From assembly GCA_041660885.1 (NCBI GenBank), contig JBAZVM010000002.1, positions 14,025 through 78,024 of the forward strand: a stretch of DNA of 64,000 nt. Reading direction: 5' to 3'. The first letter of the stretch is position 1. The number at the start of each line of letters is the position of its first letter. The position numbers and the translations under genes were made by a program. The DNA comes from Patescibacteria group bacterium. GTDB taxonomy: Bacteria > Patescibacteriota > Patescibacteriia > UBA9570 > JAHJKD01. Below the pieces are notes generated by a model. That model did no database searches and was not told the origin of the DNA. It was given only the letters and a program-made list of their open reading frames with translations. Of this stretch, positions 7,336-64,000 are shown piece after piece.

Positions 7336-7368
7336 GTAAGGAACGCGCATGTGCGTTCCTTACTTTTT
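7336..7368. terminator. bidirectional hairpin terminator between convergent genes
   Basis: gtaaggaacgc-gcatgt-gcgttccttac is a perfect 11-bp stem followed by TTTTT. The stop codon of the downstream minus-strand gene lies within one arm, and the upstream xerC-type stop lies in a second, direct copy of gtaaggaacgc starting at 7310. Confidence 0.6.
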
Positions 7369-48819: not shown

Positions 48820-48893
48820 GGGCCCGTAGCTCAGTTGGCTAGAGCGCCGCATTTGCATTGCGGAGGTCAGGAGTTCGACTCTCCTCGGGTCCA
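48820..48893 (+). tRNA. tRNA-Ala(TGC)
   Basis: Acceptor gggcccg/cgggtcc with the G3:U70 identity pair. Anticodon loop tTTGCAt. Confidence 0.9.
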
Positions 48894-48898
48894 CTAAT

Positions 48899-50122
48899 TT
48901 ATTTCTTCTTCGTGCTATGTTTCTTCTTTTGCTTTTTCAGCATCTTTTCTAATTTATAGAGATGGTAAATGGTAACCGAGCTTAAGATAGTCAGCAAGCC
49001 AATGGCTATGCCAAACACATAAAATGGCCAATAACTTTTTTCCTCAGTATAAACAGTCTGGGCTTTTTTTCCCGTTACATTTAAAACTAAATAATCGGAA
49101 ACGGCATTACCCGCTTTATCCACGGCTTGCATGGATATCTGATAACTTCCCGCTTGTAAAAAAGGCAAAAAATATTTTTCCGCTTCTTTTGGGGTAATTT
49201 TTCCTAATATTTTGTTATTTATAAAAACAGAAAAATAATCAATTCCGGAATTGTCATCGTAAGCGGCCAAATTTAAGTATGGAGATTTTTTATTTTTATG
49301 TATGTCAAAAATAAAAGATCGGGGAGGTTGCGTGTCAATTTTAAATTGATAGTGGCTGGTTTCGCTCCAGTCTGCACTATTTTTCGCGCGCAAATGAAAA
49401 TACCAAATGCCATCCGCAAGATCGTATTTCTCCAGCGTTGTCTCTTGTGTGTCTTCTTCTGTATCGGGCATGGTATCCGCAGTTTGGTTTAAATCATAAC
49501 TAAAATCCGTCACTCCTTCGTCTTTATTCCAAGATAATTTAATATTTTTATTAGCATACCAAAAATCACTTAGGGGATGCGTTTCAGAAATAATATTTGG
49601 TGTAACTGGTTTCTGTTTATTTTTTTCATTATCATCATCTATTTTATCCTCAGTGCTTTCTTTAATATTATAATTGGTTTGGCCAAGGCCGGTTAATATG
49701 TTCTGCGAAGTATTGGAAATTAAATATAATTTCCCGCTTAATACTTTCACTTGAGCCGTACCCAATGCTTTAGCATGAAACACCATGGAAATAAGAGAAC
49801 CGTTTCCGGAAAAACCGGGATTCGGCCTACCACCGGAAAAAGCTATCAAGCCTCCGGAACCGGAAGGTCCTTGGTTCCAAAATGTAAAAGCCGATCCTTT
49901 AGAAATACTTATCAGCTCCAAAGTGTCCGTAGAATAAGAAATGCTTCCATCTCCGGCGCCAATGGCGTCTCCTCCGGTGCCAACTACTAAACTCACCGTA
50001 ATATTTGAATCTAAATCATATTCTCCGCTGGTTGGAGATAAATAATAAGAACCGGACGCCCAAGAAGCGCAAAAAGGGAAAAACAAGAAAAAAATTATTA
50101 AAACTACACACTCCTTTTTCAT
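48899..50122 (-). CDS. membrane-anchored cohesin-like surface protein
   Basis: Signal peptide, a cohesin-like beta-sandwich (YYLSPTSGEYDL...ISYSTDTLELISI), an Ig-like module (THP..WY....L.W...DFSY...DG.WYFH), and a C-terminal TM helix with a KKQKKKH tail. Confidence 0.55.
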   Translation of the reverse strand: MKKECVVLIIFFLFFPFCASWASGSYYLSPTSGEYDLDSNITVSLVVGTGGDAIGAGDGSISYSTDTLELISISKGSAFTFWNQGPSGSGGLIAFSGGRPNPGFSGNGSLISMVFHAKALGTAQVKVLSGKLYLISNTSQNILTGLGQTNYNIKESTEDKIDDDNEKNKQKPVTPNIISETHPLSDFWYANKNIKLSWNKDEGVTDFSYDLNQTADTMPDTEEDTQETTLEKYDLADGIWYFHLRAKNSADWSETSHYQFKIDTQPPRSFIFDIHKNKKSPYLNLAAYDDNSGIDYFSVFINNKILGKITPKEAEKYFLPFLQAGSYQISMQAVDKAGNAVSDYLVLNVTGKKAQTVYTEEKSYWPFYVFGIAIGLLTILSSVTIYHLYKLEKMLKKQKKKHSTKKK

Positions 50123-50124
50123 AT

Positions 50125-51255
50125 TTATTTTATTTTTCTTCTTCTTTTTGAGAGCACGAAAAAGGCGATAACTATCACAACTAAAATAACAATAAATAGA
50201 ATACTTTTTTTATAGCTACGACCCTGCCCGTTATATTGCACTTCAGTTTGCGTTTCGTTGCCGGCTTTATCAAAAGCCGTAATGGTAATTATCTGCTTTT
50301 TATCTTGATCTTGAATGGTATAAGGGCTGGATAAATTTTCATAAATATGTTTTCCTTCTTGCACGGTATAAGAAGTCACCCCGGAAACGCTATCTTGGGC
50401 GGAAAAACTAACAAAAAATTGCCCGTCCAAACCTTCCGGCGTTTGGCCGATTAACGCCTGCAAATTATCCGGCGGGGTAGTGTCTATTAAAAATTTTTGA
50501 AAAGTTGTTTGTCCCCAATCGTCGTCAGACACTTTTTGCTTGATGCCGAAATAATAAACGCCATCTGTTAAATTTTCATATGTTTTACTGCCTGTTTCTT
50601 GTTCCGGAGCGGAATCTGGTTCTTTTGTTTCATTTTTATTTAATATATAGCTGTAATCAAGCGCTCCTGAATTTTCCCACTGCACGGAAAGTTTATTATT
50701 GCCGTACCAAATATTTTCTTCCGGATGCGTTGTTGATGTAATATTTATTTTATAAGGATCGCTTGGATTAATAACATAGGCAGATGGCTTAACTTTTATC
50801 TCAACCGGCTCTGGTTTTTCATCGCCATAAGCTAAAACTTGGCTTTTTTCTACATCAAGATTTATTTCAGTTTCTCCGGTTTTTGTTCCTGTAAAAACTA
50901 TCGTGAATAATTTCGCGTTTATTACGTATCCCCCTTCGGTAACTCCGCCAGTGAACATGATCTTTCCTCCTTCAACCGTAACTTGCGGTTCCACCATCCA
51001 TACATCCAAAGCGGATCCTCCGGTTATAATATCCTCAACCCGTAAATAATCTTTGGGATACGTTATTTCCCCTTGCACCGTATTAATGATTTCTAATTCG
51101 CTGTCCAACCAAACAGAAACTTCCACTGTTTCGTTCTGTTGCATGATTTTTTCACGCGGAGAAAAAGAAACAATGGCCGCATGGGAAATAATCGGCAGAC
51201 ACCAGAATAAAATGGTCATTAATAATAATTTGCGCATATTTTTCAACCCGTCCAA
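50125..51255 (-). CDS. membrane-anchored cohesin-like surface protein (paralog of 48899..50122)
   Basis: Same architecture: signal peptide, cohesin-like domain (VEVSVWLDS...GEITYPKDYLRVEDI), a THPEENIWY..DYSY..DGVYYFG module, and a C-terminal TM helix with an RRRK tail. Confidence 0.55.
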   Translation of the reverse strand: MDGLKNMRKLLLMTILFWCLPIISHAAIVSFSPREKIMQQNETVEVSVWLDSELEIINTVQGEITYPKDYLRVEDIITGGSALDVWMVEPQVTVEGGKIMFTGGVTEGGYVINAKLFTIVFTGTKTGETEINLDVEKSQVLAYGDEKPEPVEIKVKPSAYVINPSDPYKINITSTTHPEENIWYGNNKLSVQWENSGALDYSYILNKNETKEPDSAPEQETGSKTYENLTDGVYYFGIKQKVSDDDWGQTTFQKFLIDTTPPDNLQALIGQTPEGLDGQFFVSFSAQDSVSGVTSYTVQEGKHIYENLSSPYTIQDQDKKQIITITAFDKAGNETQTEVQYNGQGRSYKKSILFIVILVVIVIAFFVLSKRRRKIK

Positions 51256-52124
51256 TAAGACATTAATTCGCTAAAATCCAAAATATCCACTTTGCCGTCT
51301 TTATTAATATCCGCGCGTACGGAAGAAGATACTGTCTGACCCCAATACATCTGCATTATGCTTAAATCCAAAGCATTTACCAAGCCATCGCAATTAATAT
51401 CGGCGTCTAACGCTAAATCGCACGCGCCAAGCGCCGGATTTTTAGTGACTTTAAATTTAATTTTCTTGGAAAAAATCGAAGTGACGCCATTTTTCTTTTT
51501 GGCTTTTACTTTCGCGGTATGTTTGCCTAATGACAGCGTCGTAGCCAGCAACCGTCTGGACCAGCGGCCGCGCCTGTTGCTTAAAGCGTGTACGGATAAA
51601 ACTTCAGCGGAGTGTATTTTTATCAATATTTTTTTTCTTGGCGCTGTGGTACCGAAAAATTTTATCCTTTTGCCTTTCGGGACCGTACGTTTATTAGCTT
51701 TCACGGTCGGCGGTAAAAAAATGCCGGAAAGCGTAGCCGAGGTTCCTTCGGTTATCGTCATGATATATTTCGTGGCTCTGCCGTTTAAACCTAAAAGGTC
51801 TCGGCCGTAAATTTTAAAAGTATAAGTGCTTGGCAATACTTGCTTTGTTACGGAAAATTTAGCTTGAGAACTGGCTGTCAACGAATAAATTAATTCCTGC
51901 CCGCTTTTTACATAAACCGAAGAACGAGGATAAGCTAAACCTTTAAAAGTAACGAATGATTCCAGCTCTTCCGGAGTGGTAGTTCCGGTTGTGGGCACTT
52001 CAGCGGAAATACTAACCTCCAAAGCGCTGGTTGAATATGAAAACCCCATAATCAAAATGATTATGGGGAGAAAAGTGAAGAAAAAAAGCAGTTTATTTTT
52101 TAGCGCGTTTAATAATCCAGGCAT
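51243..52124 (-). CDS. secreted dockerin-containing protein
   Basis: Signal peptide, Ig-like region, and a C-terminal duplicated EF-hand-like dockerin repeat (DADINCDGLVNALDLSIMQMYW ... ADINKDGKVDILDFSELMSYW). Confidence 0.65.
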   Translation of the reverse strand: MPGLLNALKNKLLFFFTFLPIIILIMGFSYSTSALEVSISAEVPTTGTTTPEELESFVTFKGLAYPRSSVYVKSGQELIYSLTASSQAKFSVTKQVLPSTYTFKIYGRDLLGLNGRATKYIMTITEGTSATLSGIFLPPTVKANKRTVPKGKRIKFFGTTAPRKKILIKIHSAEVLSVHALSNRRGRWSRRLLATTLSLGKHTAKVKAKKKNGVTSIFSKKIKFKVTKNPALGACDLALDADINCDGLVNALDLSIMQMYWGQTVSSSVRADINKDGKVDILDFSELMSYWTG

Positions 52125-53076
52125 TGTAGCGTTTGATCAAGATTATGAATAAAACCACCAACACTACTAGAATTATCGTAATGAGAGTAAGCAACCTCCA
52201 AGGAATCACCCAGAAAGAAACCGTGGCCGTATCCTGCAAATTATCCTCAACGCCGAAAGTCACGGCTAAATCGGCCGTGTATTTACCAAAAGCGAAATTT
52301 TTATACTCATTGCTTAGTTCCGTAAAAAAATTGGCAAAGGCATTGCTATTGGCTTCCACTACTTCTCCCTTTTCCCAAAGCATATCGTATTTTCTGGTTT
52401 GTTTCGGCAGAGTGGCTCCTTTGCTGGAATTTACCGCGATTTTCTCTTTCACGGAGTTAAACATATTAGTTATCGTGGCTGTTCCTTGCGGTCGCAGATG
52501 GACAGAACCCGTATTTTCAAAGCGCATGGTTAAATCTGTAGGCAAACGATTATAAATTTTCTTGGTGGTAGTGAAATCCTTTATATTTCCTGATTCGACA
52601 ACATCACCATCTACAGTGACTAAAAATAAAGTACCAATTTTTGTACCAATGGCAATTTTACCTGATCCTTCCGGTACCGGGGGTTGGTTAGTAAAAAATA
52701 AAGCCGCATAATGCCCACCCGCATCGACATCGGCCGGTACTTTAATTTTTACATTTAAAGCTTTTCTTTCCCCGGGATTAACAGTAAAAGGCCCTTTTTC
52801 CACTTCAATCCATGAGCTAAGATCGGTTAATTCATCTTCAAAAGTGAAAGAAGGTTGGCCGGTTTCACCCATGGCGGAAAAATTCGCCACTTCCGTATAC
52901 AATTCTTCGGCTTTTTGGGTTTCATTGAATATTTTAATTTCAATCTCCGATTCTTGCCCCGGTTCTATTTGTAATTCAAACGATGGCGGTATCAATGTCA
53001 TGGCTGAAGCCGGATGCAAGGAACATATAAGCAATAATGCTAGTGAAGTTGCCAATGAGGCAATTATGCGTTTCAT
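52093..53076 (-). CDS. CscA-like (DUF916/DUF3324-like) cell-surface protein with C-terminal membrane anchor
   Basis: Signal peptide, two beta-sandwich-like halves (LQIEPGQESEIEIKIFN..., WIEV..FTVNPGERKALNVKIKVP...GGHY) and a C-terminal TM helix with a basic tail. This is the architecture of WxL-locus CscA proteins. Confidence 0.45.
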   Translation of the reverse strand: MKRIIASLATSLALLLICSLHPASAMTLIPPSFELQIEPGQESEIEIKIFNETQKAEELYTEVANFSAMGETGQPSFTFEDELTDLSSWIEVEKGPFTVNPGERKALNVKIKVPADVDAGGHYAALFFTNQPPVPEGSGKIAIGTKIGTLFLVTVDGDVVESGNIKDFTTTKKIYNRLPTDLTMRFENTGSVHLRPQGTATITNMFNSVKEKIAVNSSKGATLPKQTRKYDMLWEKGEVVEANSNAFANFFTELSNEYKNFAFGKYTADLAVTFGVEDNLQDTATVSFWVIPWRLLTLITIILVVLVVLFIILIKRYNAWIIKRAKK

Positions 53077-53096
53077 TTTGTTAAATATTTTAAAGA

Positions 53097-54173
53097 TTAA
53101 AAAGTACCGGTAGCAATGTACGTAACATTGGTGGTGTAGGTACCCGGTTGCGTTGTGCCAGCAATGTTAGCTAAGTAATAAGCCGAAATGGTTTCCGCAT
53201 CTGTTGGCCCTAGTTCTGAAACAACGGTTGTGGTTGTGCTGGCAACATAATTCCAATCGCGATTGGCTGGCGTGGCATTATGATCATATCCGGAAGCTAT
53301 GGTGGCATCACCGCTAGTAGAAAAACCCATGGCAAATTGTTCTGTTCCAGCAGAGCCATTTTCATCATTAGTAATGGTAGCTACGGAAATGGTATTGCCT
53401 CCGTCTGTTAAAGTCGCGCCATTATATGTAATAACATAACCGCTTCCTGCATTTGTGGCCACTTGCATAGTATGAGCGGCTGCGGAATCAGTATCTGAAC
53501 CAGTAGTGCCGGTGGCAAAACGGGCGTTAGCTGTAGCTAATGTACCAAAACCTATAGTGGTGTCATCGATAGAAAAAGTAATGGAAGGATCAACAGTAGA
53601 AGTAATGTAAACGCTGTCATCGTCAACCAACGCCACGGCAACAGAACCGCTGTCTGTCATTGTGCCGCCAATTTCTATTTCTTTGGAGCCTGAAGTGGAA
53701 GCATTGTCAATTTGATTAGCACCGGTACCATCGTGCGTTGCTCCCGTACCGATTTTAACAGTAACGGTTGCGGCCGCGGCTATTGAACCGCCGTCGCCGG
53801 TGCAAAAATTAAAAGTAATAACTTGGCCGGCAATACCTACGCCAACTGCGTCCGCTCCAGTACAATCAGCGGCTGTTTCTTCGTCCGTACCTTCTTCTTC
53901 AATATCGATATCATCTTCTGTCACCCCGGTTAAATCAAAATCCGAAGGAAATGTTAATGTAATTGTTTCCGCATTAGCCACTCCTGTAGCAGTATCAAAT
54001 ACGATAGTATGGTTGGAATTAACATCTTTTGTAGCCGTAGATAATGTGTCGCTGACATTTGATAATCCATCCGCGCGCACAGCAGTTTGCGGTACAAATA
54101 ATACCATTGCCATAGCAAAAATCACAAAAATAGATGTGATTCTATGCATAGACATCATTGATAACTTTTTCAT
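53097..54173 (-). CDS. secreted surface subunit sharing the C-terminal domain of the giant protein
   Basis: Signal peptide ending VRADG. The last ~160 aa align with the C-terminus of 54266..61198 (DTTIGFG.L..ANAR.ATGT.GSD...ISAYY..NI...T.PG.YTT..TYI.T..F). Confidence 0.6.
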   Translation of the reverse strand: MKKLSMMSMHRITSIFVIFAMAMVLFVPQTAVRADGLSNVSDTLSTATKDVNSNHTIVFDTATGVANAETITLTFPSDFDLTGVTEDDIDIEEEGTDEETAADCTGADAVGVGIAGQVITFNFCTGDGGSIAAAATVTVKIGTGATHDGTGANQIDNASTSGSKEIEIGGTMTDSGSVAVALVDDDSVYITSTVDPSITFSIDDTTIGFGTLATANARFATGTTGSDTDSAAAHTMQVATNAGSGYVITYNGATLTDGGNTISVATITNDENGSAGTEQFAMGFSTSGDATIASGYDHNATPANRDWNYVASTTTTVVSELGPTDAETISAYYLANIAGTTQPGTYTTNVTYIATGTF

Positions 54174-54235
54174 AATTTTGTTTTTTATTTTATATTTATT
54201 GATTAAAATATGATATTTTTTAACCAGTTATATGT

Positions 54236-54264
54236 ATTATAGCATACTTTTTAATGTCGGTCAA
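54236..54264 (-). promoter_or_regulatory. strong sigma70-like promoter for the 358-aa subunit gene
   Basis: On the minus strand: TTGACC (54264-54259), a 17-nt spacer, then TATAAT (54241-54236). The -35 abuts the stop codon of the giant gene. Confidence 0.55.
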
Positions 54265-54265
54265 T

Positions 54266-57200: not shown

Positions 57201-60200
57201 ATTCTCATATCCGAATCAATTGTTCCGTCGGAAACATAAACGCGATTAGCTTTATCCGTAGAATTAGAGTTTAAATATATCGCGATAGTTTGACCGGCCG
57301 TGGCCGTTACCGCGTCAAAAGTAAAAGTGGCATCGGTATCGGAACAACTGGTTGTCGTCTCCGCCCCTCCATCGACTCTCAAAGAAAGGACAGCGGTTGC
57401 ACCATCGCAAGGACCGCCATTAGCATCCGTAGCGTCCGTTTCATTATCGGCTAACCAAACTTTTCCAGTTAACGGCCATGCGGAATCGTCCCATCTTATA
57501 TAGCCGGGATTAGCTTCGTTGACTCCTTCAAAGCCGTCATAAGCTTCTCCGTCAAAACTTCCTGAAGAAGAATTAAAATCCCAATAACCCACATCAGCAT
57601 GATCCTCTAAGTTAACATTAAAATCCGCTTCGGAATTAGTATTATCAAATATTACCCCGGTCCATGTTTTTTCGTCGCTACCGATTGCGTTTTTTAAATA
57701 GATCAAAGAATTATCAGTGGCCGCGGTACTATCCAAATTATCAAAAGAACAATAATCCATATTCATAACTGAAACTCCTTGTTCAATGTATAAACCGCGC
57801 GGTCCATCCATGTGGTCAAAGTCCGTATAACTAAATTCTATGGCAGAACCACCATAAGCAAACATGCCATAACCGTCGGTTCCGCTAATATTATCTACGG
57901 TCGTGCGATGGTCGCTTGTACCAGTAGCCATTATTTCTTCCCCTGACCCAACTTTTACACTGCCAGCCGAATCAACGCGCACATCCACTTGCCGCTCGCT
58001 GCCGCCAGATAAATCCGTACCGTCAAAATCCGTGGCATAACTCCAATTATCGGTTGTTGCTACGTTATAATCACCATATATATATACGTCCCCATTTGTA
58101 TTGGCATGATCTTGCGAATATAAAGACCCGGTAGCATCAACGGTAAATGTTGAGGCCGTAGAATTCCATGAGCGAATATCCGTATTCGCGCCTATTTGCA
58201 GTGTTCCATATGTTTCCGGATCATTATTTTTACTGCCGACTGTATATGCTGTTCCTGAATTTAAATATAGTGTTCCGTCAGCCAAATCAGTAGCTCCTGT
58301 TTCTGCATCTTCAATAGCGTAAGCACCACCAACTTGTAATGTTCTGCCAGTATCTATATAAAAATCGGAAACATCGGTAATAGTCAGATCACTAGCCGTC
58401 TTCATATCGCTAGTTTGAATTGTCCAGCCGCCGGAACCGTTGTTGAATATAACTTTATAAAATGCGTGGTCCGTATCCGTTCCTCCCGCGTCTATCGTAT
58501 TGGCAGCATCACCGGCATCAAAAGTAATAGTACCGCTATTATGAGTAAGTATGCCGGCATTCGACCAGTTACCACCTACTGTAAAAGTACTGCTATTCGA
58601 TGCTAATAAAGTGCCGGTGGCTAAAATGGAAACATTTCCATCCACATTTAAAGTGGGATCATAAGTAGTACCATCCACGGAAACATCGTAAGTATCTCCT
58701 CCCATAGTTAAATTTCCGCTGACATTTATAGTTTGCGAAACATCCGAACCTAAAGTAAAAGTAGGGCTGCCTACGCCAGATGGAGCCAACTCCAAATCAT
58801 GATAAGTTTCATTTTCTATTTCCGTGGCCGCGGTACCGGTATAGGCCACTAAAGAATCGGAACCTTCAGTTAACGACCCTTCCACTAAAAACGGCATGCT
58901 GGCCGCTGTACCGGAACCGGTTACGCGCAAGGCATATCCGGAAGAACCTAAATCTAAAGTCTGCCCGGTGCGCACTCTTACTTTAGTCGCTTTAATTGAA
59001 GAACCAAGGGCTACTGTTTCTGAAGAACCGTAAATATCCACCGTGCCCATATTGGATTTCGTACTATTGCTGTCCGTCCAATTATTCGTACCCGTGCCGT
59101 CGAAAGTAAATACACCGGCAGTAGTGGTATAACTGCCGCTAGCGCCTAAGCTTAAATCATTACCCAAAGTTACATCGCTATTAATGGCGGAAAGCTCTCC
59201 GTAGGCGACGGTAAGATTATTATCCACATCCAGAGACGGATTAAAAGTCCAAGTCGCTGTTCCCGATCCCTCGCCACCGGTTAAATCGTAGAAAGAAGCA
59301 ACGGTCGCTCCGGTGGAATTTATAGTTTCGCTGCCGGAAGTGGCGGTCATTATTACGCTGGAAGTGCCTGCGGTAAAGACGGAGTTGTTGTCCCATGAAC
59401 CGGCCAATTTAAAAGTGTTGGCGTTGGCAGTAATTGTCCCGTTATTTTCCAAATCATGAGTAATTAAAGTTTCTCCGTCTGATGCGTCGGGTTGATAGGT
59501 ATTGCCGGTTAAAATATATAATTCTTCTTGCGTGGAATTGCCCGCGGGAGAATCTATAGTAAGAGTTGAAGTGCCGCCATCATATTCAAAAATAATATCT
59601 TCATCATTAGTGGAGGCGGAATAATCGTAGTTGGAAATATTGGCATTGGTAATGGTTTGGTAATCATTACTGCCCAGAGTGACATGTTCTTCCATTAGTT
59701 TATAGCCATAGCTGTTTCCGGAATTATCATATTTAGAAATAGCGCTAGCTTCATTGGCATCAGCTACGCCATCAATAAAAATGGTTATCACATCTCCGGA
59801 AGAGGGCGCGGTTAAACCGGGAACAGTGAAAGTGCCATCTTTGGTTAAGCCTGTTTGCGCTTGTAAATTAGCGTTATAAGCCACTTTAACCGTTTGCGAA
59901 TCCGGACAAGCTGCAGACTGGTCGTAATCCAAACACTCCCCAGCCACATGAAAAACTGTACCAGCTTTATTAAAAGCAAAATCATAAGGCTTGGTAGGCA
60001 AAGCCGCGGTCGGTAAAACACCGGTGGAAAGATCGGTTTCAAACGCTCCCATGGTAGCAGATTGAGTCCATGTGCCATTGGCTACTCCATCCCATAGTTT
60101 CATTTCCGGCGCCATATCTAAAGTAGTTTCATTTTCAGCTATTAGCATAATTTTTGTTGACGATGGGTCAGGACGTAAGATTACGCCGGAGGTATTGCCT

Positions 60201-61198
60201 TTTAAAAAAGCTGTTGATAAACATGGGCCGGCGTTATCTTCAGCCAAATCCAAACCTGTCACCACTTCTATAGTTCCGGCTCCGCCTTCGGTTAAGGTGC
60301 ATTCCGTACCTCCATCGCTAATCGCTTGAAACTGGTTCGCGGATATATCGTAAACCATATAAGAAACAGTGGTATCACTAGCCACGGTCGCGCGTACGCC
60401 ATCACGCCAGGCGAATAACACTCGATCTGAAGAAGACCCCACTTCCCACGCTACATCCACGGCTTGCGCATAACCATTATTATTAATATCCGCATCTTCC
60501 GTAGGCGTGGCCACAGTAGTCCAATCCGATCCATTCCACATATCTACATTAACATCAGCTGAACTAGTAGAAACTGTATCAACGGTTATTAAACCAATAT
60601 AATCATTATTGGGGCTGCCTGCCGCCTGCAACCAAACCACAGCGGCACCTGGATTAACCGAGCCAGAGCCATTTGTCCATGTTCCTCCTGAATAAACAGA
60701 ATAATCCGTTGTCGTACTAATTCCCCATATTGTAAAGCCATCTCCGGAAGTTCCTTCCCAAGCGCTATCCGATGTTTGTTTAACCGTTGTCGCGGCAACA
60801 CCAGCGGCATCATGTAAAACAATATCATCCCAAGCCGAACCGGTCCAAACTGCGCCATACACTCCGTAATAAGTATAATTTTTCCAAGTCAAAATAATGC
60901 TGTCGCTGCCGTAATCAGAAGTTAATTCTATCCAAAGAGAAACATCGTTATTACCACCTTCAGCTACGCCTGAATAATCCAAGGATTGTTCATCGGACCA
61001 TTTCGCGCCATTCCAAGTACGATATTTTAAAGTTTGATTTGCGGTGGAAGTATCTTCATAAACTACTAACGCGTCTCCGGATGAATCTTCATACGCAACA
61101 TCAAATTCTCTATATACTCCGTAAGTCCACCAATATTGGTGGTAAAATCTCCGTTGGTTGGCGCGTTGGCTCCATCTATCCATGTGCTGCCATCCCAA
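54266..61198 (-). CDS. giant surface adhesin-like protein (2310 aa as called), probably the 3' part of a single frameshifted gene
   Basis: Uninterrupted ORF. The N-terminal ~410 aa repeat a module from the upstream ORF. The long Thr/Gly/Asn/Asp-rich beta-helix-like middle is followed by a C-terminal domain shared with 53097..54173. Confidence 0.7.
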   Translation of the reverse strand: MGWQHMDRWSQRANQRRFYHQYWWTYGVYREFDVAYEDSSGDALVVYEDTSTANQTLKYRTWNGAKWSDEQSLDYSGVAEGGNNDVSLWIELTSDYGSDSIILTWKNYTYYGVYGAVWTGSAWDDIVLHDAAGVAATTVKQTSDSAWEGTSGDGFTIWGISTTTDYSVYSGGTWTNGSGSVNPGAAVVWLQAAGSPNNDYIGLITVDTVSTSSADVNVDMWNGSDWTTVATPTEDADINNNGYAQAVDVAWEVGSSSDRVLFAWRDGVRATVASDTTVSYMVYDISANQFQAISDGGTECTLTEGGAGTIEVVTGLDLAEDNAGPCLSTAFLKGNTSGVILRPDPSSTKIMLIAENETTLDMAPEMKLWDGVANGTWTQSATMGAFETDLSTGVLPTAALPTKPYDFAFNKAGTVFHVAGECLDYDQSAACPDSQTVKVAYNANLQAQTGLTKDGTFTVPGLTAPSSGDVITIFIDGVADANEASAISKYDNSGNSYGYKLMEEHVTLGSNDYQTITNANISNYDYSASTNDEDIIFEYDGGTSTLTIDSPAGNSTQEELYILTGNTYQPDASDGETLITHDLENNGTITANANTFKLAGSWDNNSVFTAGTSSVIMTATSGSETINSTGATVASFYDLTGGEGSGTATWTFNPSLDVDNNLTVAYGELSAINSDVTLGNDLSLGASGSYTTTAGVFTFDGTGTNNWTDSNSTKSNMGTVDIYGSSETVALGSSIKATKVRVRTGQTLDLGSSGYALRVTGSGTAASMPFLVEGSLTEGSDSLVAYTGTAATEIENETYHDLELAPSGVGSPTFTLGSDVSQTINVSGNLTMGGDTYDVSVDGTTYDPTLNVDGNVSILATGTLLASNSSTFTVGGNWSNAGILTHNSGTITFDAGDAANTIDAGGTDTDHAFYKVIFNNGSGGWTIQTSDMKTASDLTITDVSDFYIDTGRTLQVGGAYAIEDAETGATDLADGTLYLNSGTAYTVGSKNNDPETYGTLQIGANTDIRSWNSTASTFTVDATGSLYSQDHANTNGDVYIYGDYNVATTDNWSYATDFDGTDLSGGSERQVDVRVDSAGSVKVGSGEEIMATGTSDHRTTVDNISGTDGYGMFAYGGSAIEFSYTDFDHMDGPRGLYIEQGVSVMNMDYCSFDNLDSTAATDNSLIYLKNAIGSDEKTWTGVIFDNTNSEADFNVNLEDHADVGYWDFNSSSGSFDGEAYDGFEGVNEANPGYIRWDDSAWPLTGKVWLADNETDATDANGGPCDGATAVLSLRVDGGAETTTSCSDTDATFTFDAVTATAGQTIAIYLNSNSTDKANRVYVSDGTIDSDMRMIIDRVIIGDENDGTVNITDLDAYDDTTNATDMLFDAVDDTTDTITVNSDKKLNVWQGDIFDPNGTVTTTGSTSGDLVLDQDSTAYIDEGSSAIGNDIAIIGGGTNTTLSIGENLSVAGGTIGTVGTNCTVTYTGTPTVTVSGTGNIGGGTSPSITFYILNLSGVPTLASNIVIAKNLDMTSDLVAGTYNVIMTSTNGNIYGGGGTLYNLVINPSSPGTIYGREDLTVSNVLTVEANDHFYINNGVIIDAPGTLTLNGTIEHETTGILRFTDTSSGPGATGTLSSYVYYDATDGDIADTTFDARLYGDQVRFFSSSSTARSVTFASGTYDFGGAFYIDDDGAAPGDLAVTGAANNPVVNITGNLDFVGTGSASEIIVSGNNVWTVEGDVNFSNGTYTATTGNTFIMYNGLSASLNTNSQTFYNFQLAAGGVSCYDPFIVSNDFTVSDQSFYAYDSVNVDGVFHVETDGLFAAMGAYNTNIGGDITIDGIYNYANSTATIFDGNLTYLDNHGATNMGYLQIGGSSDTVDLGTDITAKSLTVNSTNALYTNGFDIDVDIGGISVSGTLDATDDVETNETQINNAGDLTINSGATFNADQSTIIMDGRDEDNDQIITDGSFSLYNLTIYHYLTVEVEDALDVNGTLNISSGTLDTLAGESNSINVAGNWITGDKFVANSSLVTLDGDSQQTVSGTLTGINAFYDLTVTNSFGTNPQTDPSVIFSDSTAVTRNFTDITPNSKLRFLAAGDFTFQNINLNGQDIDSLVSLRSSSAGSVWNLNVAGTRSVYYTDAKDSYACAVAPDIDATHISNLDSTGNDCWNFAFLSFDISDTTIGFGSLTAANARYATGTSGSDSKTPAHTLTVYTSAENGYNVTYYGDTLTSSAGSISAATITGDDNGDFGQSQFALGITTAGDATIASGYDAATPADYKFEVNNLTTLFSEAAATDSEEISAYYISNIEDTTPAGEYTTSITYIMTASF

Positions 61199-62890
61199 AC
61201 TTGCAAATCCAAATGCCCCAAGCTGGTTTGAGAACCGCTGATATATTCTTCTCTGGTCGGGCAGGCTTCTATAATTTTATGAGTCGCTTCTTCATATCCG
61301 GTAACAGTCCCGGTGCCGGCATCTCCTTCGGCGCTATAATCCGTTCCCGCTGTCCAAGTTCTATAATGAGGATTAACCAAATTGGCGCCGTCCTCATGAT
61401 AAGCCAACAAACCCGTGCCATCAGCGGAATATTTTTTAAAAGCATGCGAGTAAGGCATAATAGCTATGGCGGCCGTGGCTAAAGTACCCGGAGAAGCATC
61501 AGTTTCTATGGCGCCCATAGTACCGGTTTGCGCAAGCCAAGTGGCATTATCCTCGCCTTGCCAATACATAGCCTCGGGCCGGACATCTAAAGTCAGTTCA
61601 TTCTGAGTTAAAACCATTAAACCGCGGCCGCTATAATCTTGAGTAATCTCCACGCCAGATGTATTTCCCACCATATAAGCTGATGTCAAACAAGGACCGC
61701 CGTTATCTTCGGCCAGATCCAAGCTGGTTACTGTTTCCGCATATCCCGCGTCTCCTTCGGTTATGGCGCATTCCGTGCCGCCATCGTCTATGGCTTGAAA
61801 AGCATTTGCGGAAATATCATAAACCATATAGGACAAAGCTGTTTCGCTGGCCACGGCCGCGCGTATGCCATCGCGCCAGGCAAATAATGCCCGATCGCTA
61901 GAACCGCCATATTCCCACTCTACATCCACGGCTTGTGCATAACCATTATTATTAATATCACCATCATCAGTCGGTGTAGTAACTGTGGTCCAATCCGAAC
62001 CATTCCACATATCTACGCCAACATCGGCAGTACTTGTGCTAACCACATCCGCATGTATCATGGCAATATAATTGTTATTCGGGCTGCCTGCCGCTTGCAA
62101 CCAAACCACGGCGCCGGCGGGATTTTTAGAGCCTGAGCCATTAGCCCATTCGCCAGCAATGTAAGTAGAATAATCCGTGGTCGTACCCGTGCCCCAAACA
62201 GCCATACCGTCTCCTGAAGTTCCTTCCCACGCGCAATCTATGGATTGTTTTGTGGAAGTGGGCACGCCGGCAGCGTCGTGCAACACAATATCATCCCAAG
62301 ATGACCCGTTCCAAACCGCCCCGTATATACCATATAAAGCATAATTTTTCCAAATTAACATGATGTTATCACTGCCATAATCAGGAACCAATTCTACCCA
62401 TATAGAGACATCATCAGTACCCGATTCAGCGACGCCGCTGAAATCTATAGTACCCTCAGCCGACCAAGTGCTGCCATTCCAAGTACGATACTTCAGCGTC
62501 TTATTAGCTGTTGCGCTGTCTTCATAAACAACTAAAGCGTCTCCCGTGGAATCCTCATAAGCAACATCAAAATTACGATAGTTGGCATAAGTAATATTTA
62601 AACCGGTGCCATTAAGCGAACCATTCGTGGCTGCTCCACTACCAATGGACCAGCTGCCGCCAGTAAACATTTGAGCTTGGATATTGCCGGTTTCATATTG
62701 TTCCACGCGCATATACTCATCGCGAGTAGGCGCGGCTTCCACTTGAACAAACCTTAAATCCGATCCGTTGCCGCCATCGTATGCTTGCATATTACTTTCC
62801 GAACTGACATCGCTGGGCGTCCAAGTTCTATAATGAGGGTTGGGCAAAGTATTGCTCATGTCTTCATCATAAACCAGCATGCCATTGCCA
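59960..62890 (-). repeat. tandem duplication of a ~1.47-kb (489-codon) module inside the giant gene
   Basis: ccaagttctataatgagg occurs at 61354 and 62821 (offset 1467). ccattattattaatatc occurs at 60474 and 61943 (offset 1469). The protein modules align (PHYRTWT...FDVAYEDS.GDALVVYED...). Confidence 0.75.
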
Positions 62891-64000
62891 TTAGCCGCGT
62901 CCGAGGCAATCTGCCATTGGCGCGCTTCGGTAAAAATTTCAGGAGCTTCTGCCGGGCCGAGCAAGAAAATATCCGGCGATCTATCCGGCGCGTCGTATTG
63001 GTAAGATAAAGTATAAGCCTGCCCCGCTTTCCACTCCACAAACCAATCAATGATTTTTCTGTCATTATTCATGGATTCTTGCCCGTCTTGGTCTATGCGC
63101 TTTAGCGTAAAATCCGTTGGCATGCTTTCCCTGAATAAGCCGGAATAATCTTGCGCGGGCACTACTTCTAAAAAAACTTCGTAATCGGCAATAGGCCAAA
63201 TACGGGAAGAGGTAATGCGGGAGATATCAAAGGGAATATTATCAAGCACGGGTAAATCTTCTTCAATAGTATGAATCCCGGCCTCGGTTGTGGCAATAAG
63301 TTTTAAATGATAATCGCCATTATGCTTAATATCAAAGGTGGCGCTGTAATCCGGTAAATTAGTTACTGTAATCGGTCCGCAGGCGTTAGAACGAGAGACG
63401 GAATTATCTTGAGTGGATAATATTTGTTTTTCTCCGGTAGGTGCAGTTATTTCCAACTGCATGTCCGCATTGCAAATAGTGTGGCCTTGATTATCCAGTA
63501 CACCCATGCCCAAATTGACGGTCTCACCCATATGGTACATGGATTTTGTCGGGTTCATTACCAGCACTCCCCAAGAAAATCTTTCTATCAATTCAATATC
63601 TCTACCGCCTTGTTGCACCAGCACTTTTAATTTATATTCTCCGGGAATGGTAAAATCCCCGGGCGTTATTTCCAGTTCTTTAACATTATGTTTTCTGTTG
63701 TTTTTGGTATTCTCTGGTATGGGTAAATCTTTATTTTCTCCTTGCGGATTAACCAAAGTAATGGATTCTATTTCCCTTTCATCTCCGCCGATACCTAAGA
63801 AACTTAGCATGGAATTATCAGAAACATTGATATCGGCCTGGGGCAATTCATCCATTTGATAATCGCTTTTTTCCAGATTAACAATATTTTGAGATAAATC
63901 CGGAGGAGGAGAAAGTGCTTCCAAAGTTAATTTCAAGCTTACGCCGTCTACATAAGCCGTGGCGATTTTTTCCCGCGCGTCATCGGCGTAATAAGTGAAT
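61066..64000 (-). CDS. N-terminal part of the giant surface protein (5' end beyond the window)
   Basis: The reading frame stays open to the window edge (…FTYYADDAREKIATAYVDGVS-LKLTLEAL…). It overlaps the next ORF by 133 nt in a different frame, across a homologous module. Confidence 0.65.
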   Translation of the reverse strand, partial: FTYYADDAREKIATAYVDGVSLKLTLEALSPPPDLSQNIVNLEKSDYQMDELPQADINVSDNSMLSFLGIGGDEREIESITLVNPQGENKDLPIPENTKNNRKHNVKELEITPGDFTIPGEYKLKVLVQQGGRDIELIERFSWGVLVMNPTKSMYHMGETVNLGMGVLDNQGHTICNADMQLEITAPTGEKQILSTQDNSVSRSNACGPITVTNLPDYSATFDIKHNGDYHLKLIATTEAGIHTIEEDLPVLDNIPFDISRITSSRIWPIADYEVFLEVVPAQDYSGLFRESMPTDFTLKRIDQDGQESMNNDRKIIDWFVEWKAGQAYTLSYQYDAPDRSPDIFLLGPAEAPEIFTEARQWQIASDAANGNGMLVYDEDMSNTLPNPHYRTWTPSDVSSESNMQAYDGGNGSDLRFVQVEAAPTRDEYMRVEQYETGNIQAQMFTGGSWSIGSGAATNGSLNGTGLNITYANYRNFDVAYEDSTGDALVVYEDSATANKTLKYRTWNGSTWSAEGTIDFSGVAESGTDDVSIWVELVPDYGSDNIMLIWKNYALYGIYGAVWNGSSWDDIVLHDAAGVPTSTKQSIDCAWEGTSGDGMAVWGTGTTTDYSTYIAGEWANGSGSKNPAGAVVWLQAAGSPNNNYIAMIHADVVSTSTADVGVDMWNGSDWTTVTTPTDDGDINNNGYAQAVDVEWEYGGSSDRALFAWRDGIRAAVASETALSYMVYDISANAFQAIDDGGTECAITEGDAGYAETVTSLDLAEDNGGPCLTSAYMVGNTSGVEITQDYSGRGLMVLTQNELTLDVRPEAMYWQGEDNATWLAQTGTMGAIETDASPGTLATAAIAIMPYSHAFKKYSADGTGLLAYHEDGANLVNPHYRTWTAGTDYSAEGDAGTGTVTGYEEATHKIIEACPTREEYISGSQTSLGHLDLQVWDGSTWIDGANAPTNGDFTTNIGGLTEYIENLMLRMKIHPETR

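What the first reader, a model, noticed from the sequence alone, without database searches (positions are those of the whole stretch)
48899..64000. 15-kb operon for a composite cell-surface apparatus: giant adhesin, shared-domain subunit, CscA-like anchor and a cohesin/dockerin set
Seven co-oriented minus-strand ORFs have gaps or overlaps of -32 to +92 nt. In order they encode:
1. A giant surface protein of more than 3200 aa, split over two ORFs.
2. A 358-aa secreted protein sharing the giant's ~160-aa C-terminal domain.
3. A protein with the signal / two beta-sandwich / C-terminal TM architecture of CscA (DUF916/DUF3324) from Firmicute WxL loci.
4. A secreted protein ending in a typical duplicated dockerin.
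5. Two paralogous membrane-anchored proteins with cohesin-like domains.

This combination suggests a modular surface complex. Cohesin scaffolds in the membrane would hold a dockerin adaptor, alongside a WxL-like large-plus-small subunit pair. The shared domain's C-terminal strand (PG.YTT..TYI.T..F) resembles terminal strands of WxL and SCPU-type surface subunits, but it lacks the Trp motifs.

In an organism that probably lives attached to other cells, this is a prime candidate for a host-attachment machine. As far as I know, this composition has not been described.
Basis: partly seen in the sequence, partly recalled or inferred. Interest (0 to 1): 0.8.

Follow-up and report, generated by a model that had tools for sequence, protein, structure and literature searches.

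The report
Giant-tipped CPR pilus operon with cohesin-dockerin anchor
This is a conserved operon of ultrasmall (CPR/Patescibacteria) bacteria that most likely builds a recently discovered "Pam"-type strand-exchange pilus, here in an undescribed version tipped by a ~3,400-residue adhesin and probably tied to the membrane through a cohesin-dockerin pair.

Summary
Seven co-oriented minus-strand ORFs form six genes, because the giant gene is split by a 1-nt frameshift.

The shared domain is the C-terminal domain of Pam pilins (NCBIfam NF058581). Pam pili are a CPR pilus system described in a 2026 preprint, so the core is known. That core is a pilin plus a membrane-anchored PapD/WxLIP-like chaperone.

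Three things appear to be new:
- A donor-strand motif (VxVTATV) precedes the domain in small pilins. It also opens the mature dockerin protein. It is absent from the giant.
- Dockerin and cohesin genes co-occur strictly: 39 loci with both, 1 with dockerin only, 0 with cohesin only, 26 with neither. In the one exception a transmembrane helix replaces the dockerin.
- Dockerin-positive loci almost always have a giant ORF upstream (26 of 27).

Inferred order: giant tip (acceptor only), pilin shaft (donor and acceptor), dockerin terminator (donor only), membrane cohesins.

I class it as a new variant of a known kind. It is syntenic in about 40 species-level genomes. Polymerisation and cohesin-dockerin binding are untested.

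The parts
61066..64000 (-). Giant surface protein, N-terminal ORF. It is cut by the window end; the true start with its signal peptide lies about 611 nt beyond 64000.
   Evidence: The frame stays open to the window end. The identical Logan contig has a 1181-aa gene call, and the N-terminus has a basic-then-hydrophobic signal segment. Residues 2-370 are 42% identical to the giants of L007 and L059.
61120..61135 (-). Site of the 1-nt frameshift that splits the giant gene.
   Evidence: Internal repeat copy 1 (...ATNGS...TYANYRNFDVAYED) aligns to frame A up to PTNGDFTTNIGG. From TYGVYREFDVAYED onward it aligns to frame B. The same sequence is present in the Logan assembly.
54266..61198 (-). Giant surface protein, C-terminal ORF. 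It holds the second propeller-like repeat, a long repeat-rich region with no Pfam match, and the Pam pilin C-terminal domain.
   Evidence: No Pfam family at E<=0.1.
54269..54739 (-). C-terminal Pam-pilin domain of the giant. It is an acceptor domain only; the preceding segment (...DSTGNDCWNFAF) lacks the donor-strand motif.
   Evidence: NF058581 scores 54.2 bits against a cutoff of 55. It is 56% identical to the pilin C-terminal domain. The motif is absent from 0/7 large proteins bearing the domain and 0/27 giant fragments, and is present in only 1/49 representatives of >=550 aa.
53097..54173 (-). 358-aa Pam-type pilin: signal peptide, N-terminal domain, linker (donor) strand, C-terminal domain.
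   Evidence: NF058581 scores 70 bits against a cutoff of 55. The isolated C-terminal domain scores 74 bits.
53586..53621 (-). Linker/donor strand of the pilin, DDSVYITSTVDP (residues 185-196).
   Evidence: The family consensus DDxVxVTATVDP sits immediately before the C-terminal domain. The strict motif occurs in 38/53 small pilins, always 153-209 residues from the C-terminus, against a background of 0.086 per 1000 residues.
53100..53585 (-). Pilin C-terminal (acceptor) domain, ending ...PGTYTTNVTYIATGTF-COOH.
   Evidence: In all 150 listed representatives the domain lies at the extreme C-terminus. The last residue is F in 131 and Y in 17 of those 150.
52093..53076 (-). 327-aa membrane-anchored chaperone-like protein (WxLIP / PamC-PamD / PapD-like): signal peptide, two beta-sandwich domains, C-terminal TM helix.
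   Evidence: PF06030 scores 31.9 bits against a cutoff of 27.3. The AF2 model has pLDDT 92. Foldseek top hits are WxLIP 9i1y/9i25 at E 1e-11, followed by CsuC, CfaA, Caf1M, DraB and FaeE.
51243..52124 (-). 293-aa secreted dockerin protein: signal peptide, donor-like strand, about two Ig-like domains, type I dockerin. No TM helix.
   Evidence: Dockerin_1 scores 43.5 bits. Topology.
51996..52022 (-). Donor-strand-like segment LEVSISAEV at the mature N-terminus of the dockerin protein.
   Evidence: The motif [VI]x[VI][TS]AxV occurs in 39/45 orthologues directly after the signal peptide.
51246..51407 (-). Type I dockerin module with two Ca-binding repeats (DINCDGLVNALD and DINKDGKVDILD).
50125..51255 (-). 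376-aa membrane protein: signal peptide, cohesin-like domain, FN3/Ig-like domains, C-terminal TM helix.
   Evidence: It is a full-length paralogue of the 407-aa protein. OmpL47/Big-type Ig hit. TM helix.
48899..50122 (-). 407-aa membrane protein: signal peptide, cohesin fold (residues 24-154, nt 49661-50053), FN3-like domain, Ig (Big_13), C-terminal TM helix (nt 48959-49030).
   Evidence: The AF2 model has pLDDT 87.7. Foldseek matches: 2w1n cohesin+FN3 at E 3e-11, and cohesins 2xdh, 1g1k and 2vn5 with target-normalised TM-scores of 0.72-0.78. Pfam Cohesin scores 15.7 bits, below the 24.1 cutoff, but 6 of 28 homologues carry PF00963, and NCBI names the protein 'cohesin domain-containing protein'.

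Best explanation
The locus is a single operon for a Pam-type, usher-less pilus or surface fibre of a Patescibacteria (CPR) bacterium, assembled by donor-strand exchange.

Proposed mechanism:
1. All products are exported by Sec.
2. The 327-aa protein stays in the membrane through its C-terminal helix. It caps the incomplete Ig-like C-terminal domain (CTD) of subunits by donating a strand, as WxLIP, PamC/PamD and PapD-type chaperones do.
3. The giant protein (about 3,440 aa) has only an acceptor CTD and no donor strand. It can therefore sit only at the distal tip, where it is the adhesin.
4. The 358-aa pilin has both a donor strand (DDSVYITSTVDP) and an acceptor CTD. It forms the shaft, with one to many copies.
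5. The 293-aa dockerin protein has a donor strand at its mature N-terminus and no acceptor CTD. It ends the chain.
6. Its C-terminal dockerin plugs into the cohesin domains of the two membrane-anchored paralogues (376 and 407 aa), tying the fibre to the cell.

The dockerin protein and the cohesin proteins together would then do the job proposed for PamR in Ca. Mycosynbacter amalyticus.

What is shown: domain identities, folds, topology, motif distribution, synteny and co-occurrence. What is inferred: polymerisation, the order of subunits, cohesin-dockerin binding, and a role in host attachment.
For: Pam-pilin identity:
- The pilin matches NF058581 at 70-74 bits against a cutoff of 55. The giant's C-terminus scores 54.2 bits. 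All 33 aligned CTDs match the model, best E 8.5e-52.
- The Pam system was defined by cryo-EM in the preprint 10.64898/2026.03.03.709456. Its parts are pilins with an N-terminal domain, a linker donor strand and a CTD; a CTD-only tip protein, PamT; TM-anchored PapD-like chaperones; and a TM-anchored terminator, PamR, with an N-terminal strand.

Chaperone:
- The AF2 model (pLDDT 92) best matches WxLIP structures, then chaperone-usher chaperones.
- It has a low-confidence loop at about residues 130-150, where the WxLIP paper describes a loop that becomes a strand completing the WxL sandwich.

Polarity logic from the donor-strand motif:
- Present in 38/53 small pilins just before the CTD, and in 39/45 dockerin proteins just after the signal peptide.
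- Absent or nearly so elsewhere: 0/7 large CTD proteins, 0/27 giant fragments, 0/91 cohesin-like proteins, 1/113 chaperones.
- In an independent set of 150 representatives it occurs in 44/70 pilin-sized proteins and 1/49 large ones.
- The donor segment aligns in 92% of 340-400 aa proteins and 4% of proteins >=550 aa, p 6e-17.
- Two dockerin orthologues (L030, L035) carry an extra N-terminal domain of about 170 residues before the strand, the position the N-terminal domain occupies in pilins.

Anchor:
- Dockerin and cohesin genes co-occur as 39 (both), 1 (dockerin only), 0 (cohesin only), 26 (neither); p 1.6e-17.
- In the single dockerin-type gene without cohesins (L081), a TM helix stands where the dockerin would be. 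That is the PamR architecture.
- The cohesin fold is supported by structure.

Giant tip: dockerin-positive loci have an ORF of >=900 aa upstream in 26/27 cases, against 8/20 in dockerin-negative loci; p 2.5e-5.

Synteny: the order giant, pilin(s), chaperone(s), dockerin, cohesin, cohesin recurs in L002-L004 and in about 38 species genomes.
Against: - No structure of the pilin or of any complex was computed here, so the acceptor groove and the strand insertion are inferred from family membership and a 7-residue motif.
- The window's own pilin has a variant motif (VYITSTV, with S in place of A).
- The chaperone matched no Pam-named NCBIfam model, even with the E-value limit raised to 10. Its link to PamC/PamD rests on fold and architecture only.
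- The Pfam Cohesin score of the window protein is below the cutoff.
- The giant gene carries a frameshift. If that is real, this particular copy may make a truncated protein without the CTD.
- No filament has been seen in this lineage. The small subunit could be a single adaptor rather than a polymer.
- The reason for two cohesin paralogues per single dockerin is unexplained.
Confidence: 0.6

Rival explanations
1. A WxL/Csc-like, non-polymerising cell-surface complex. The WxLIP-like membrane protein would hold the giant and the small protein on the envelope permanently by strand complementation of their shared C-terminal domain. No fibre forms. The cohesin and dockerin proteins would be a separate co-regulated scaffold.
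For: - PF06030 scores above its cutoff, and the best structural matches are WxLIP, including a WxLIP-WxL complex.
- The arrangement of one small and one large protein sharing a C-terminal domain, plus a DUF916-type TM protein, mirrors WxL clusters.
- No filament has been observed for this lineage.
Against: - The shared domain matches the Pam pilin model. Pam pilins are shown by cryo-EM to polymerise.
- No WxL domain (PF13731) hit in 33 CTDs at E<=1, and the W-x-L motifs are absent.
- The donor-strand motif is conserved in the small subunit and in the dockerin protein but absent from the giant. A static complex has no need for this pattern.
Confidence: 0.2
2. A Pam-type fibre in which the cohesin-fold membrane proteins are an assembly platform (an usher-like or polymerisation-site role) or wall-spanning struts, not the anchor of the dockerin protein. 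The dockerin would bind something else, such as a host or wall component.
For: - Two or three cohesin-like paralogues are conserved per locus. In many loci the second is about 800 aa with CarboxypepD_reg repeats. That is more than a simple anchor needs.
- Non-cellulosomal dockerins with unknown partners are common (own knowledge).
Against: - Dockerin and cohesin genes co-occur strictly, and in L081 the dockerin is replaced by a TM helix exactly where cohesins are missing.
- This is the pattern expected if the dockerin-cohesin pair only supplies membrane attachment.
Confidence: 0.12
3. A cellulosome-like polysaccharide-degrading or sugar-binding scaffold that happens to lie next to an adhesin gene.
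For: Cohesin and dockerin modules are present. A GH5-like gene lies elsewhere in the window at 7360-9108.
Against: - No catalytic or carbohydrate-binding module occurs in any of the operon proteins.
- The only dockerin-bearing protein has Ig-like domains and a pilin-type strand.
- The gene order with pilin and chaperone is fixed across about 40 genomes.
Confidence: 0.03

Closest known systems
Pam pilus system of Ca. Mycosynbacter amalyticus (Saccharimonadia): PamA/B/E pilins, PamT tip, PamC/D chaperones, PamR anchor. Preprint 10.64898/2026.03.03.709456; NCBIfam NF058579 and NF058581.
   Same: - The C-terminal pilin domain matches NF058581.
- The pilin is built as N-terminal domain, linker strand, C-terminal domain.
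- The chaperone is PapD-like, has two domains and is anchored by a TM helix.
- No usher or secretin is present.
- A subunit lacking a donor strand is available for the tip, and a subunit with only an N-terminal strand is available for the base.
- The system is restricted to CPR bacteria.
   Different: - The tip is a multi-thousand-residue adhesin (about 3,440 aa here; gene calls of 4,766-9,711 aa in related loci) instead of the small CTD-only PamT.
- The base subunit ends in a dockerin instead of a TM helix, and two cohesin-fold TM proteins are added.
- There is one pilin and one chaperone here, against three pilins and two chaperones.
- The lineage is Kerfeldbacteria/Parcubacteria-like, not Saccharimonadia or Microgenomatia.
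- The preprint does not mention dockerin, cohesin, adhesin, WxL or DUF916.
WxL / Csc cell-surface clusters of Firmicutes (small WxL protein, large WxL protein, WxLIP = DUF916-DUF3324-TM helix; PMC10599100; PDB 9i1y, 9i25).
   Same: - The 327-aa protein passes the Pfam threshold for WxLIP_PGBD, and its best structural matches are WxLIP.
- A small and a large secreted protein share one C-terminal domain.
- A strand of the TM-anchored partner is predicted to complete that domain.
   Different: - No WxL domain or W-x-L motifs.
- No hit to the second WxLIP domain family (DUF3324).
- No LPXTG partner was noted in the operon proteins.
- The small subunit has an extra N-terminal domain and a donor strand.
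- WxL proteins are described as peptidoglycan-bound, not as filaments.
Chaperone-usher pili (Fim/Pap, Csu, CFA/I, Caf1).
   Same: - The proposed donor-strand logic has three classes of subunit: a tip adhesin with an acceptor-only pilin domain (as in FimH and PapG), shaft subunits, and a terminator.
- The chaperone has the two-domain Ig-like fold. Foldseek E-values to CsuC, CfaA, Caf1M, DraB and FaeE are 1e-9 to 1e-7.
   Different: - No outer-membrane usher.
- The chaperone is membrane-tethered.
- The donor strand is an internal linker, not an N-terminal extension.
- There is no detectable sequence similarity, apart from two weak PF00419 hits among 33 CTDs.
Cohesin-dockerin pairs (cellulosomes; non-cellulosomal pairs such as Archaeoglobus fulgidus 2xdh and C. 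perfringens GH84C 2w1n).
   Same: - A type I dockerin with two Ca-binding repeats.
- A cohesin jelly-roll fold; the cohesin+FN3 tandem resembles 2w1n.
- Both partners are encoded side by side.
   Different: - No enzymes or carbohydrate-binding modules.
- The cohesins are anchored by a C-terminal TM helix.
- The proposed cargo is a pilus base subunit.

Membership tests
Pam pilus system (CPR) | Pilin carrying the Pam pilin C-terminal domain (NCBIfam NF058581) | tested here: met
   The 358-aa protein scores 70 bits and its isolated CTD 74.1 bits, against a cutoff of 55. The giant's C-terminus scores 54.2 bits, just under the cutoff. All 33 family CTDs match.
Pam pilus system (CPR) | Linker beta-strand between the N- and C-terminal domains that is donated to the next subunit | tested here: inconclusive
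   A conserved strand-like motif DDxVxVTATVDP lies exactly at the junction between the two domains. No structure or complex was computed.
Pam pilus system (CPR) | PapD/FimC-like two-domain chaperone with a C-terminal TM helix (PamC/PamD) | tested here: met
   The AF2 model (pLDDT 92) has two beta-sandwich domains and a TM helix at residues 293-326. Foldseek matches WxLIP and chaperone-usher chaperones.
Pam pilus system (CPR) | Tip subunit with an acceptor CTD but no donor strand (PamT) | tested here: met
   The giant has the CTD without the donor motif. This holds across large CTD-bearing proteins. The form differs: it is a giant adhesin, not a single-domain protein.
Pam pilus system (CPR) | Membrane-anchored terminator with an N-terminal strand and two FnIII-like domains (PamR) | tested here: inconclusive
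   The dockerin protein has the N-terminal strand motif and Ig-like domains but ends in a dockerin rather than a TM helix. The L081 orthologue has a TM helix instead. No comparison with the PamR sequence or structure was possible.
Pam pilus system (CPR) | Forms extracellular filaments | not testable with these tools
   Needs cryo-EM, cryo-ET or proteomics of the organism.
WxL / Csc cluster | WxLIP protein: DUF916 (PF06030), DUF3324 and a TM helix | tested here: inconclusive
   PF06030 scores 31.9 bits against a cutoff of 27.3, a TM helix is present, and the top Foldseek hits are WxLIP 9i1y/9i25. No Pfam hit to the DUF3324 domain at E<=0.1.
WxL / Csc cluster | Two or more proteins with a WxL domain (PF13731, dual Trp-x-Leu motifs) | tested here: not met
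   No PF13731 hit in 33 CTDs at E<=1. No hit of the CTD profile to any PDB sequence, which includes the WxL chain of 9i25. The motifs are absent from the sequence.
Cohesin-dockerin system | Type I dockerin with duplicated Ca-binding segment | tested here: met
   PF00404 scores 43.5 bits against a cutoff of 22.9. The sequence contains DINCDGLVNALD and DINKDGKVDILD.
Cohesin-dockerin system | Cohesin module | tested here: met
   At fold level, target-normalised TM-scores are 0.67-0.78 and rmsd 2.4-3.7 A to solved cohesins. Pfam scores 15.7 bits, below the 24.1 cutoff, in the window protein, but PF00963 is recorded for 6 of 28 homologues.
Cohesin-dockerin system | Specific binding of the dockerin to the cohesin | not testable with these tools
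   Only indirect evidence: strict gene co-occurrence, 39 (both), 1 (dockerin only), 0 (cohesin only), 26 (neither), p 1.6e-17.
Chaperone-usher pili | Outer-membrane usher | tested here: not met
   No usher-like gene in the operon or its flanks. The organism is a CPR bacterium; absence of an outer membrane rests on own knowledge.

The most novel reading that the evidence does not exclude
CPR bacteria outside Saccharimonadia build donor-strand-exchange pili with three distinctive features. The distal end is a 3,000-10,000-residue adhesin. The proximal end is held on the cell by a cohesin-dockerin plug. That would be a new role for the cohesin-dockerin pair: a non-covalent pilus anchor that replaces a transmembrane helix. 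In addition, the assembly chaperone is homologous to Firmicute WxLIP. WxL clusters and Pam pili would then be branches of one usher-less, chaperone-only strand-complementation superfamily of bacteria lacking an outer membrane.
Probability: 0.4. Interest if true: 0.8.

Novelty: new variant of a known kind. Interest (0 to 1): 0.62.

Why it matters
How the huge and mostly uncultured CPR radiation attaches to host cells is largely unknown. Pam pili were recognised only in 2026, in one cultured Saccharibacterium.

If my reading is right:
- Pam-type systems extend to at least 250 species-level genomes of other CPR lineages.
- The host-binding part would be identified as giant, rapidly diverging tip proteins.
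- There is a simple, testable polarity rule: acceptor only, donor plus acceptor, donor only.
- Cohesin-dockerin pairing would be used as a pilus anchor.

It also links Pam chaperones to the WxLIP proteins of enterococci, listeriae and lactobacilli. The mechanism of WxL loci is still debated, so the link could redirect work on them.

Tried and rejected
- Sequence search of the pilin, and of a 33-sequence CTD profile, against PDB sequences found nothing meaningful. No direct link to deposited PamA/PamB or WxL chains could be made.
- The Pfam scan of 33 CTDs gave no WxL hit. Two members gave weak Fimbrial (PF00419) hits.
- NCBIfam with the E-value limit raised to 10 found no Pam-named model for the chaperone, the dockerin protein or the cohesin proteins.
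- The profile search of the 5.8-billion-protein set with the CTD alignment returned only short 'hypothetical' proteins and no Mycosynbacter entry.
- The first related-loci run, with the 45-sequence alignment, failed for lack of a conserved stretch. It was repeated with 16 closer sequences.
- I looked for an intact orthologue spanning the giant's frameshift. P0149, L007 and L059 lack the propeller-like repeats, so the internal duplication was used instead.
- I first placed the frameshift in 'TATATA' near 61112-61120. The repeat alignment moves it to about 61126.
- A phmmer scan found no further Pam-type genes elsewhere in the window.
- The scan found no intrinsic terminator downstream of the last gene.
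- The literature library holds no paper linking WxL or DUF916 to CPR or to donor-strand exchange, and no paper on cohesin/dockerin in CPR pili.
- Both structure-prediction jobs went to the chaperone and the cohesin protein. The pilin itself was therefore not modelled.

Full report
OBSERVATION

The region holds seven co-oriented minus-strand ORFs:
- 48899-50122 (407 aa)
- 50125-51255 (376 aa)
- 51243-52124 (293 aa)
- 52093-53076 (327 aa)
- 53097-54173 (358 aa)
- 54266-61198 (2310 codons)
- an ORF from 61066 that stays open to the window end

A Logan contig is 100% identical to window 48865-63076. On it the giant gene starts about 611 nt beyond the window, after an AT-rich intergenic region. Its N-terminus has a basic-then-hydrophobic signal segment. 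An Amidase_2/CARDB gene lies upstream on the same strand.

The two giant ORFs overlap by 133 nt in different frames. The giant contains a tandem duplication of about 390 aa at 68% identity. Copy 1 aligns to the upstream frame as far as '...PTNGDFTTNIGG', and to the downstream frame from 'TYGVYREFDVAYED' onward. A single-nucleotide frameshift therefore lies near 61126. Repaired, the protein would be about 3,440 aa. I cannot tell whether the shift is real or an assembly error.

The 358-aa protein and the giant share their last 161 residues at 56% identity, E 2e-48. The 407-aa and 376-aa proteins are full-length paralogues, E 2e-28. All five small proteins have signal-like N-termini. The 327-, 376- and 407-aa proteins end in a TM helix and a basic tail.

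DOMAIN IDENTITIES

- 293-aa protein: Pfam Dockerin_1, 43.5 bits against a cutoff of 22.9.
- 327-aa protein: WxLIP_PGBD (the former DUF916), 31.9 bits against a cutoff of 27.3.
- 407-aa protein: Cohesin, 15.7 bits against a cutoff of 24.1, so below threshold.
- 358-aa protein: NCBIfam NF058581 'CPR_Pam_pilin_C, Pam pilus system pilin subunit', 70 bits against a cutoff of 55. There is a weaker match to the PamT model.
- Giant, last 250 residues: the same NF058581 model at 54.2 bits.
- GenBank names these products 'hypothetical', 'DUF916 domain-containing', 'dockerin type I domain-containing' and 'cohesin domain-containing'. They lie on a 153.8-kb contig of a 'Patescibacteria group bacterium'.

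WHAT PAM IS

A 2026 preprint (10.64898/2026.03.03.709456) solved filaments of the Saccharibacterium Ca. Mycosynbacter amalyticus by cryo-EM.
[quoted passage not shown] The linker of the neighbouring subunit completes that domain.
- The operon also encodes PamE (a pilin) and PamT (C-terminal domain only, proposed tip).
- PamC and PamD are PapD/FimC-like chaperones with a C-terminal TM helix.
- PamR has two FnIII-like domains, a C-terminal TM helix and an extra N-terminal strand. It is the proposed terminator and anchor.
- The preprint reports homologues mainly in Saccharimonadia and Microgenomatia.
- It does not contain the words dockerin, cohesin, adhesin, WxL or DUF916.

STRUCTURES

The 327-aa protein was modelled with 45 homologues and reached pLDDT 92. 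The model shows a signal helix, two beta-sandwich domains and a TM helix at 293-326. A lower-confidence loop lies at about residues 130-150.

Foldseek against the PDB gives as best matches 'WxLIP from Enterococcus faecium' (9i1y) and 'WxLIP ... bound to long WxL' (9i25), at E about 1e-11. RbmA and the chaperone-usher chaperones CsuC, CfaA, Caf1M, DraB and FaeE follow. The WxLIP paper (PMC10599100) predicts that a disordered hairpin loop of WxLIP becomes a strand that completes the WxL beta-sandwich. That is the same principle as donor-strand complementation.

The 407-aa protein reached pLDDT 87.7. It has a cohesin-fold domain (residues 24-154), an FN3-like domain, an Ig domain and a TM helix. 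Foldseek finds the cohesin+FN3 tandem 2w1n at E 3e-11. It also finds many cohesins with target-normalised TM-scores of 0.67-0.78 and rmsd 2.4-3.7 A. Six of its 28 homologues carry PF00963.

SYNTENY

Homologues of the chaperone-like protein are all from Patescibacteria-type genomes: Kerfeldbacteria, Parcubacteria, Uhrbacteria, Nomurabacteria, Doudnabacteria, Peregrinibacteria and Minisyncoccales. A few records carry evidently wrong labels. A scan of one genome per species found relatives in 250 genomes, and 80 loci were fetched.

A phmmer annotation of all ORFs in these loci gave these counts:
- Of 68 loci with at least 3.5 kb downstream, 39 have a dockerin protein directly after the chaperone.
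- Of those 39, 38 continue with a cohesin-like gene and 36 have two or more.
- Of 27 dockerin-positive loci with both flanks, 26 have an ORF of at least 900 aa upstream. The figure is 8 of 20 for dockerin-negative loci (Fisher p 2.5e-5).

Gene calls in three long contigs show giants of 4,766, 9,711 and 6,879 aa in the same position.

Other chaperone loci are organised differently. Some have several pilins and three or four chaperone paralogues. Others have a chaperone followed by a protein of about 1,100-1,200 aa with a pilin-like N-terminal domain.

THE POLARITY PATTERN

In an alignment of 33 C-terminal domains, the small pilins share a strand-like segment immediately before the domain. Its consensus is DDxVxVTATVDP; in the window it reads DDSVYITSTVDP. 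The large proteins have unrelated sequence there, for example ...DSTGNDCWNFAF.

The orthologues of the dockerin protein carry the same motif directly after their signal peptide. Examples are QVVVTATVP and IDVSVSATVP; the window has LEVSISAEVP.

Counts of the strict motif [VI]x[VI][TS]AxV:
- small pilins: 38/53, always 153-209 residues from the C-terminus
- dockerin proteins: 39/45
- large proteins bearing the domain: 0/7
- giant fragments: 0/27
- cohesin-like proteins: 0/91
- chaperones: 1/113
- all other ORFs: 0.086 per 1000 residues

An independent exhaustive search of 1.84 billion representatives found 497 clusters with the domain at E<=1e-3. In all 150 listed hits the domain is at the extreme C-terminus, and 148 of these end in F or Y.
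- The donor segment is included in the alignment in 92% of 340-400 aa proteins and 4% of proteins of at least 550 aa (p 6e-17).
- A slightly relaxed motif occurs in 44/70 pilin-sized and 1/49 large proteins.

Two dockerin orthologues (L030, L035) have an additional N-terminal domain of about 170 residues in front of the strand, the position the N-terminal domain occupies in pilins.

THE ANCHOR

Across loci with enough flank, dockerin and cohesin genes co-occur as follows: 39 with both, 1 with dockerin only, 0 with cohesin only, 26 with neither (p 1.6e-17).

The single locus with a dockerin-type protein but no cohesins is L081. There the protein keeps the signal peptide, the strand (DDFVSVSANV) and the Ig-like domains. 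A TM helix stands where the dockerin would be, followed in the same frame by a Nudix-like domain. That is the architecture described for PamR.

INTERPRETATION

The simplest reading is one linear, usher-less strand-exchange assembly:
1. giant tip adhesin (acceptor only)
2. pilin shaft (donor and acceptor)
3. dockerin protein (donor only, so chain-terminating)
4. cohesin domains of two membrane proteins

The membrane-tethered WxLIP/PapD-like protein would act as chaperone.

Shown here: domains, folds, topology, motif distribution, synteny and co-occurrence. Inferred: the fit of the strands in the groove, polymerisation, cohesin-dockerin binding and a role in host attachment. I put this at about 0.6.

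The main rival (about 0.2) is a static WxL-like surface complex with no fibre. A variant (about 0.12) gives the cohesin proteins another role. A cellulosome-like function is very unlikely because no enzyme or carbohydrate-binding module is present.

COMPARISON AND NOVELTY

The locus passes the testable criteria for the Pam family: the pilin domain, and the chaperone's fold and TM anchor. It differs in its tip, its base and its lineage.

It is not a WxL cluster, because no WxL domain was found. Its chaperone does belong to the WxLIP/DUF916 family by Pfam threshold and by fold. I found that link in no paper of the library.

It works like a chaperone-usher pilus but has no usher. I class it as a new variant of a known kind. 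Its claim of an undescribed composition is only partly right.

CONTEXT

The flanks are housekeeping genes: L19, a pseudouridine synthase, FtsH, S1, GyrA, TIM, SMC and a CCA-adding enzyme. No other Pam-type genes are in the window.

Noticed in passing
window 59960-62600 (-), within the giant gene: A tandem duplication of about 390 aa (68% identical copies) is rich in W/G 'WNGS.W' motifs and looks like a beta-propeller. It is absent from the giants of related loci (L007, L059, P0149), so the adhesin's middle part is lineage-specific.
   Followed up: partly
window ~61120-61135 (-): A one-nucleotide frameshift splits the giant gene. The identical sequence is present in an independent Logan assembly of SRR18595301. 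Both flanking frames remain open for roughly 1,160 and 2,280 codons, so it is either very recent, phase-variable or an assembly error.
   Followed up: partly
L085 109-1887 (just beyond the window end, same strand as the operon): A 592-aa protein with Amidase_2 (a peptidoglycan amidase domain) and a faint CARDB hit sits directly upstream of the giant gene. About 250 nt of AT-rich spacer with a promoter-like TTGCAA...TATAAT separates the two.
   Followed up: no
L081 7474-8859: In this orthologue of the dockerin protein, a TM helix stands where the dockerin would be. It runs on in the same frame into a Nudix-hydrolase-like cytoplasmic domain. This locus has no cohesin genes.
   Followed up: partly
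P0095-P0118: Many more distant chaperone homologues (about 510-570 aa; Kaiserbacteria, Falkowbacteria) are fused to a LytR C-terminal domain (PF13399).
   Followed up: no
L036, L037, L045, L047, L052, L053, L056, L063, L067, L076, L083, L084: A different locus type, mostly in Uhrbacteria. The chaperone is followed by a single protein of about 1,100-1,235 aa that begins with a pilin-like N-terminal domain. These loci have no dockerin or cohesin genes.
   Followed up: no
L038, L040, L061, L070, L072, L073, L075: Loci with three or four tandem chaperone paralogues. L038, L040 and L073 also have a second, divergent pilin family: an FN3-like N-terminal domain and a C-terminus ...GSYQN..TYIT.AQ[FY]. 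This layout is closer to the multi-pilin Mycosynbacter operon.
   Followed up: partly
L002, L003, L006, L009, L011, L012, L014-L018, L021, L023: The closest relatives of the window's chaperone usually have a second, shorter chaperone paralogue (about 305-330 aa) between the pilin and the main chaperone. The window has only one. In these loci the second cohesin-like protein is about 740-990 aa; CarboxypepD_reg domains are recorded for it in L002 and L003.
   Followed up: no
window 26151-28112 (-), 28175-31768 (+), 32530-36207 (+): Three further large, probably surface proteins. One is a 653-aa protein with six CarboxypepD_reg repeats. The other two are ORFs of about 1,200 aa with essentially no Pfam match, flanking triosephosphate isomerase.
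   Followed up: no
window 7360-9108 (-): A GH5/cellulase-like glycoside hydrolase gene lies in a genome otherwise typical of a reduced CPR bacterium.
   Followed up: no
titles of L005, L006, L014, L019, L056 and others: Several public MAG records carrying this CPR-type operon are labelled Gammaproteobacteria, Pirellulales or Methylomirabilis. These are probably mis-binned or mislabelled.
   Followed up: no
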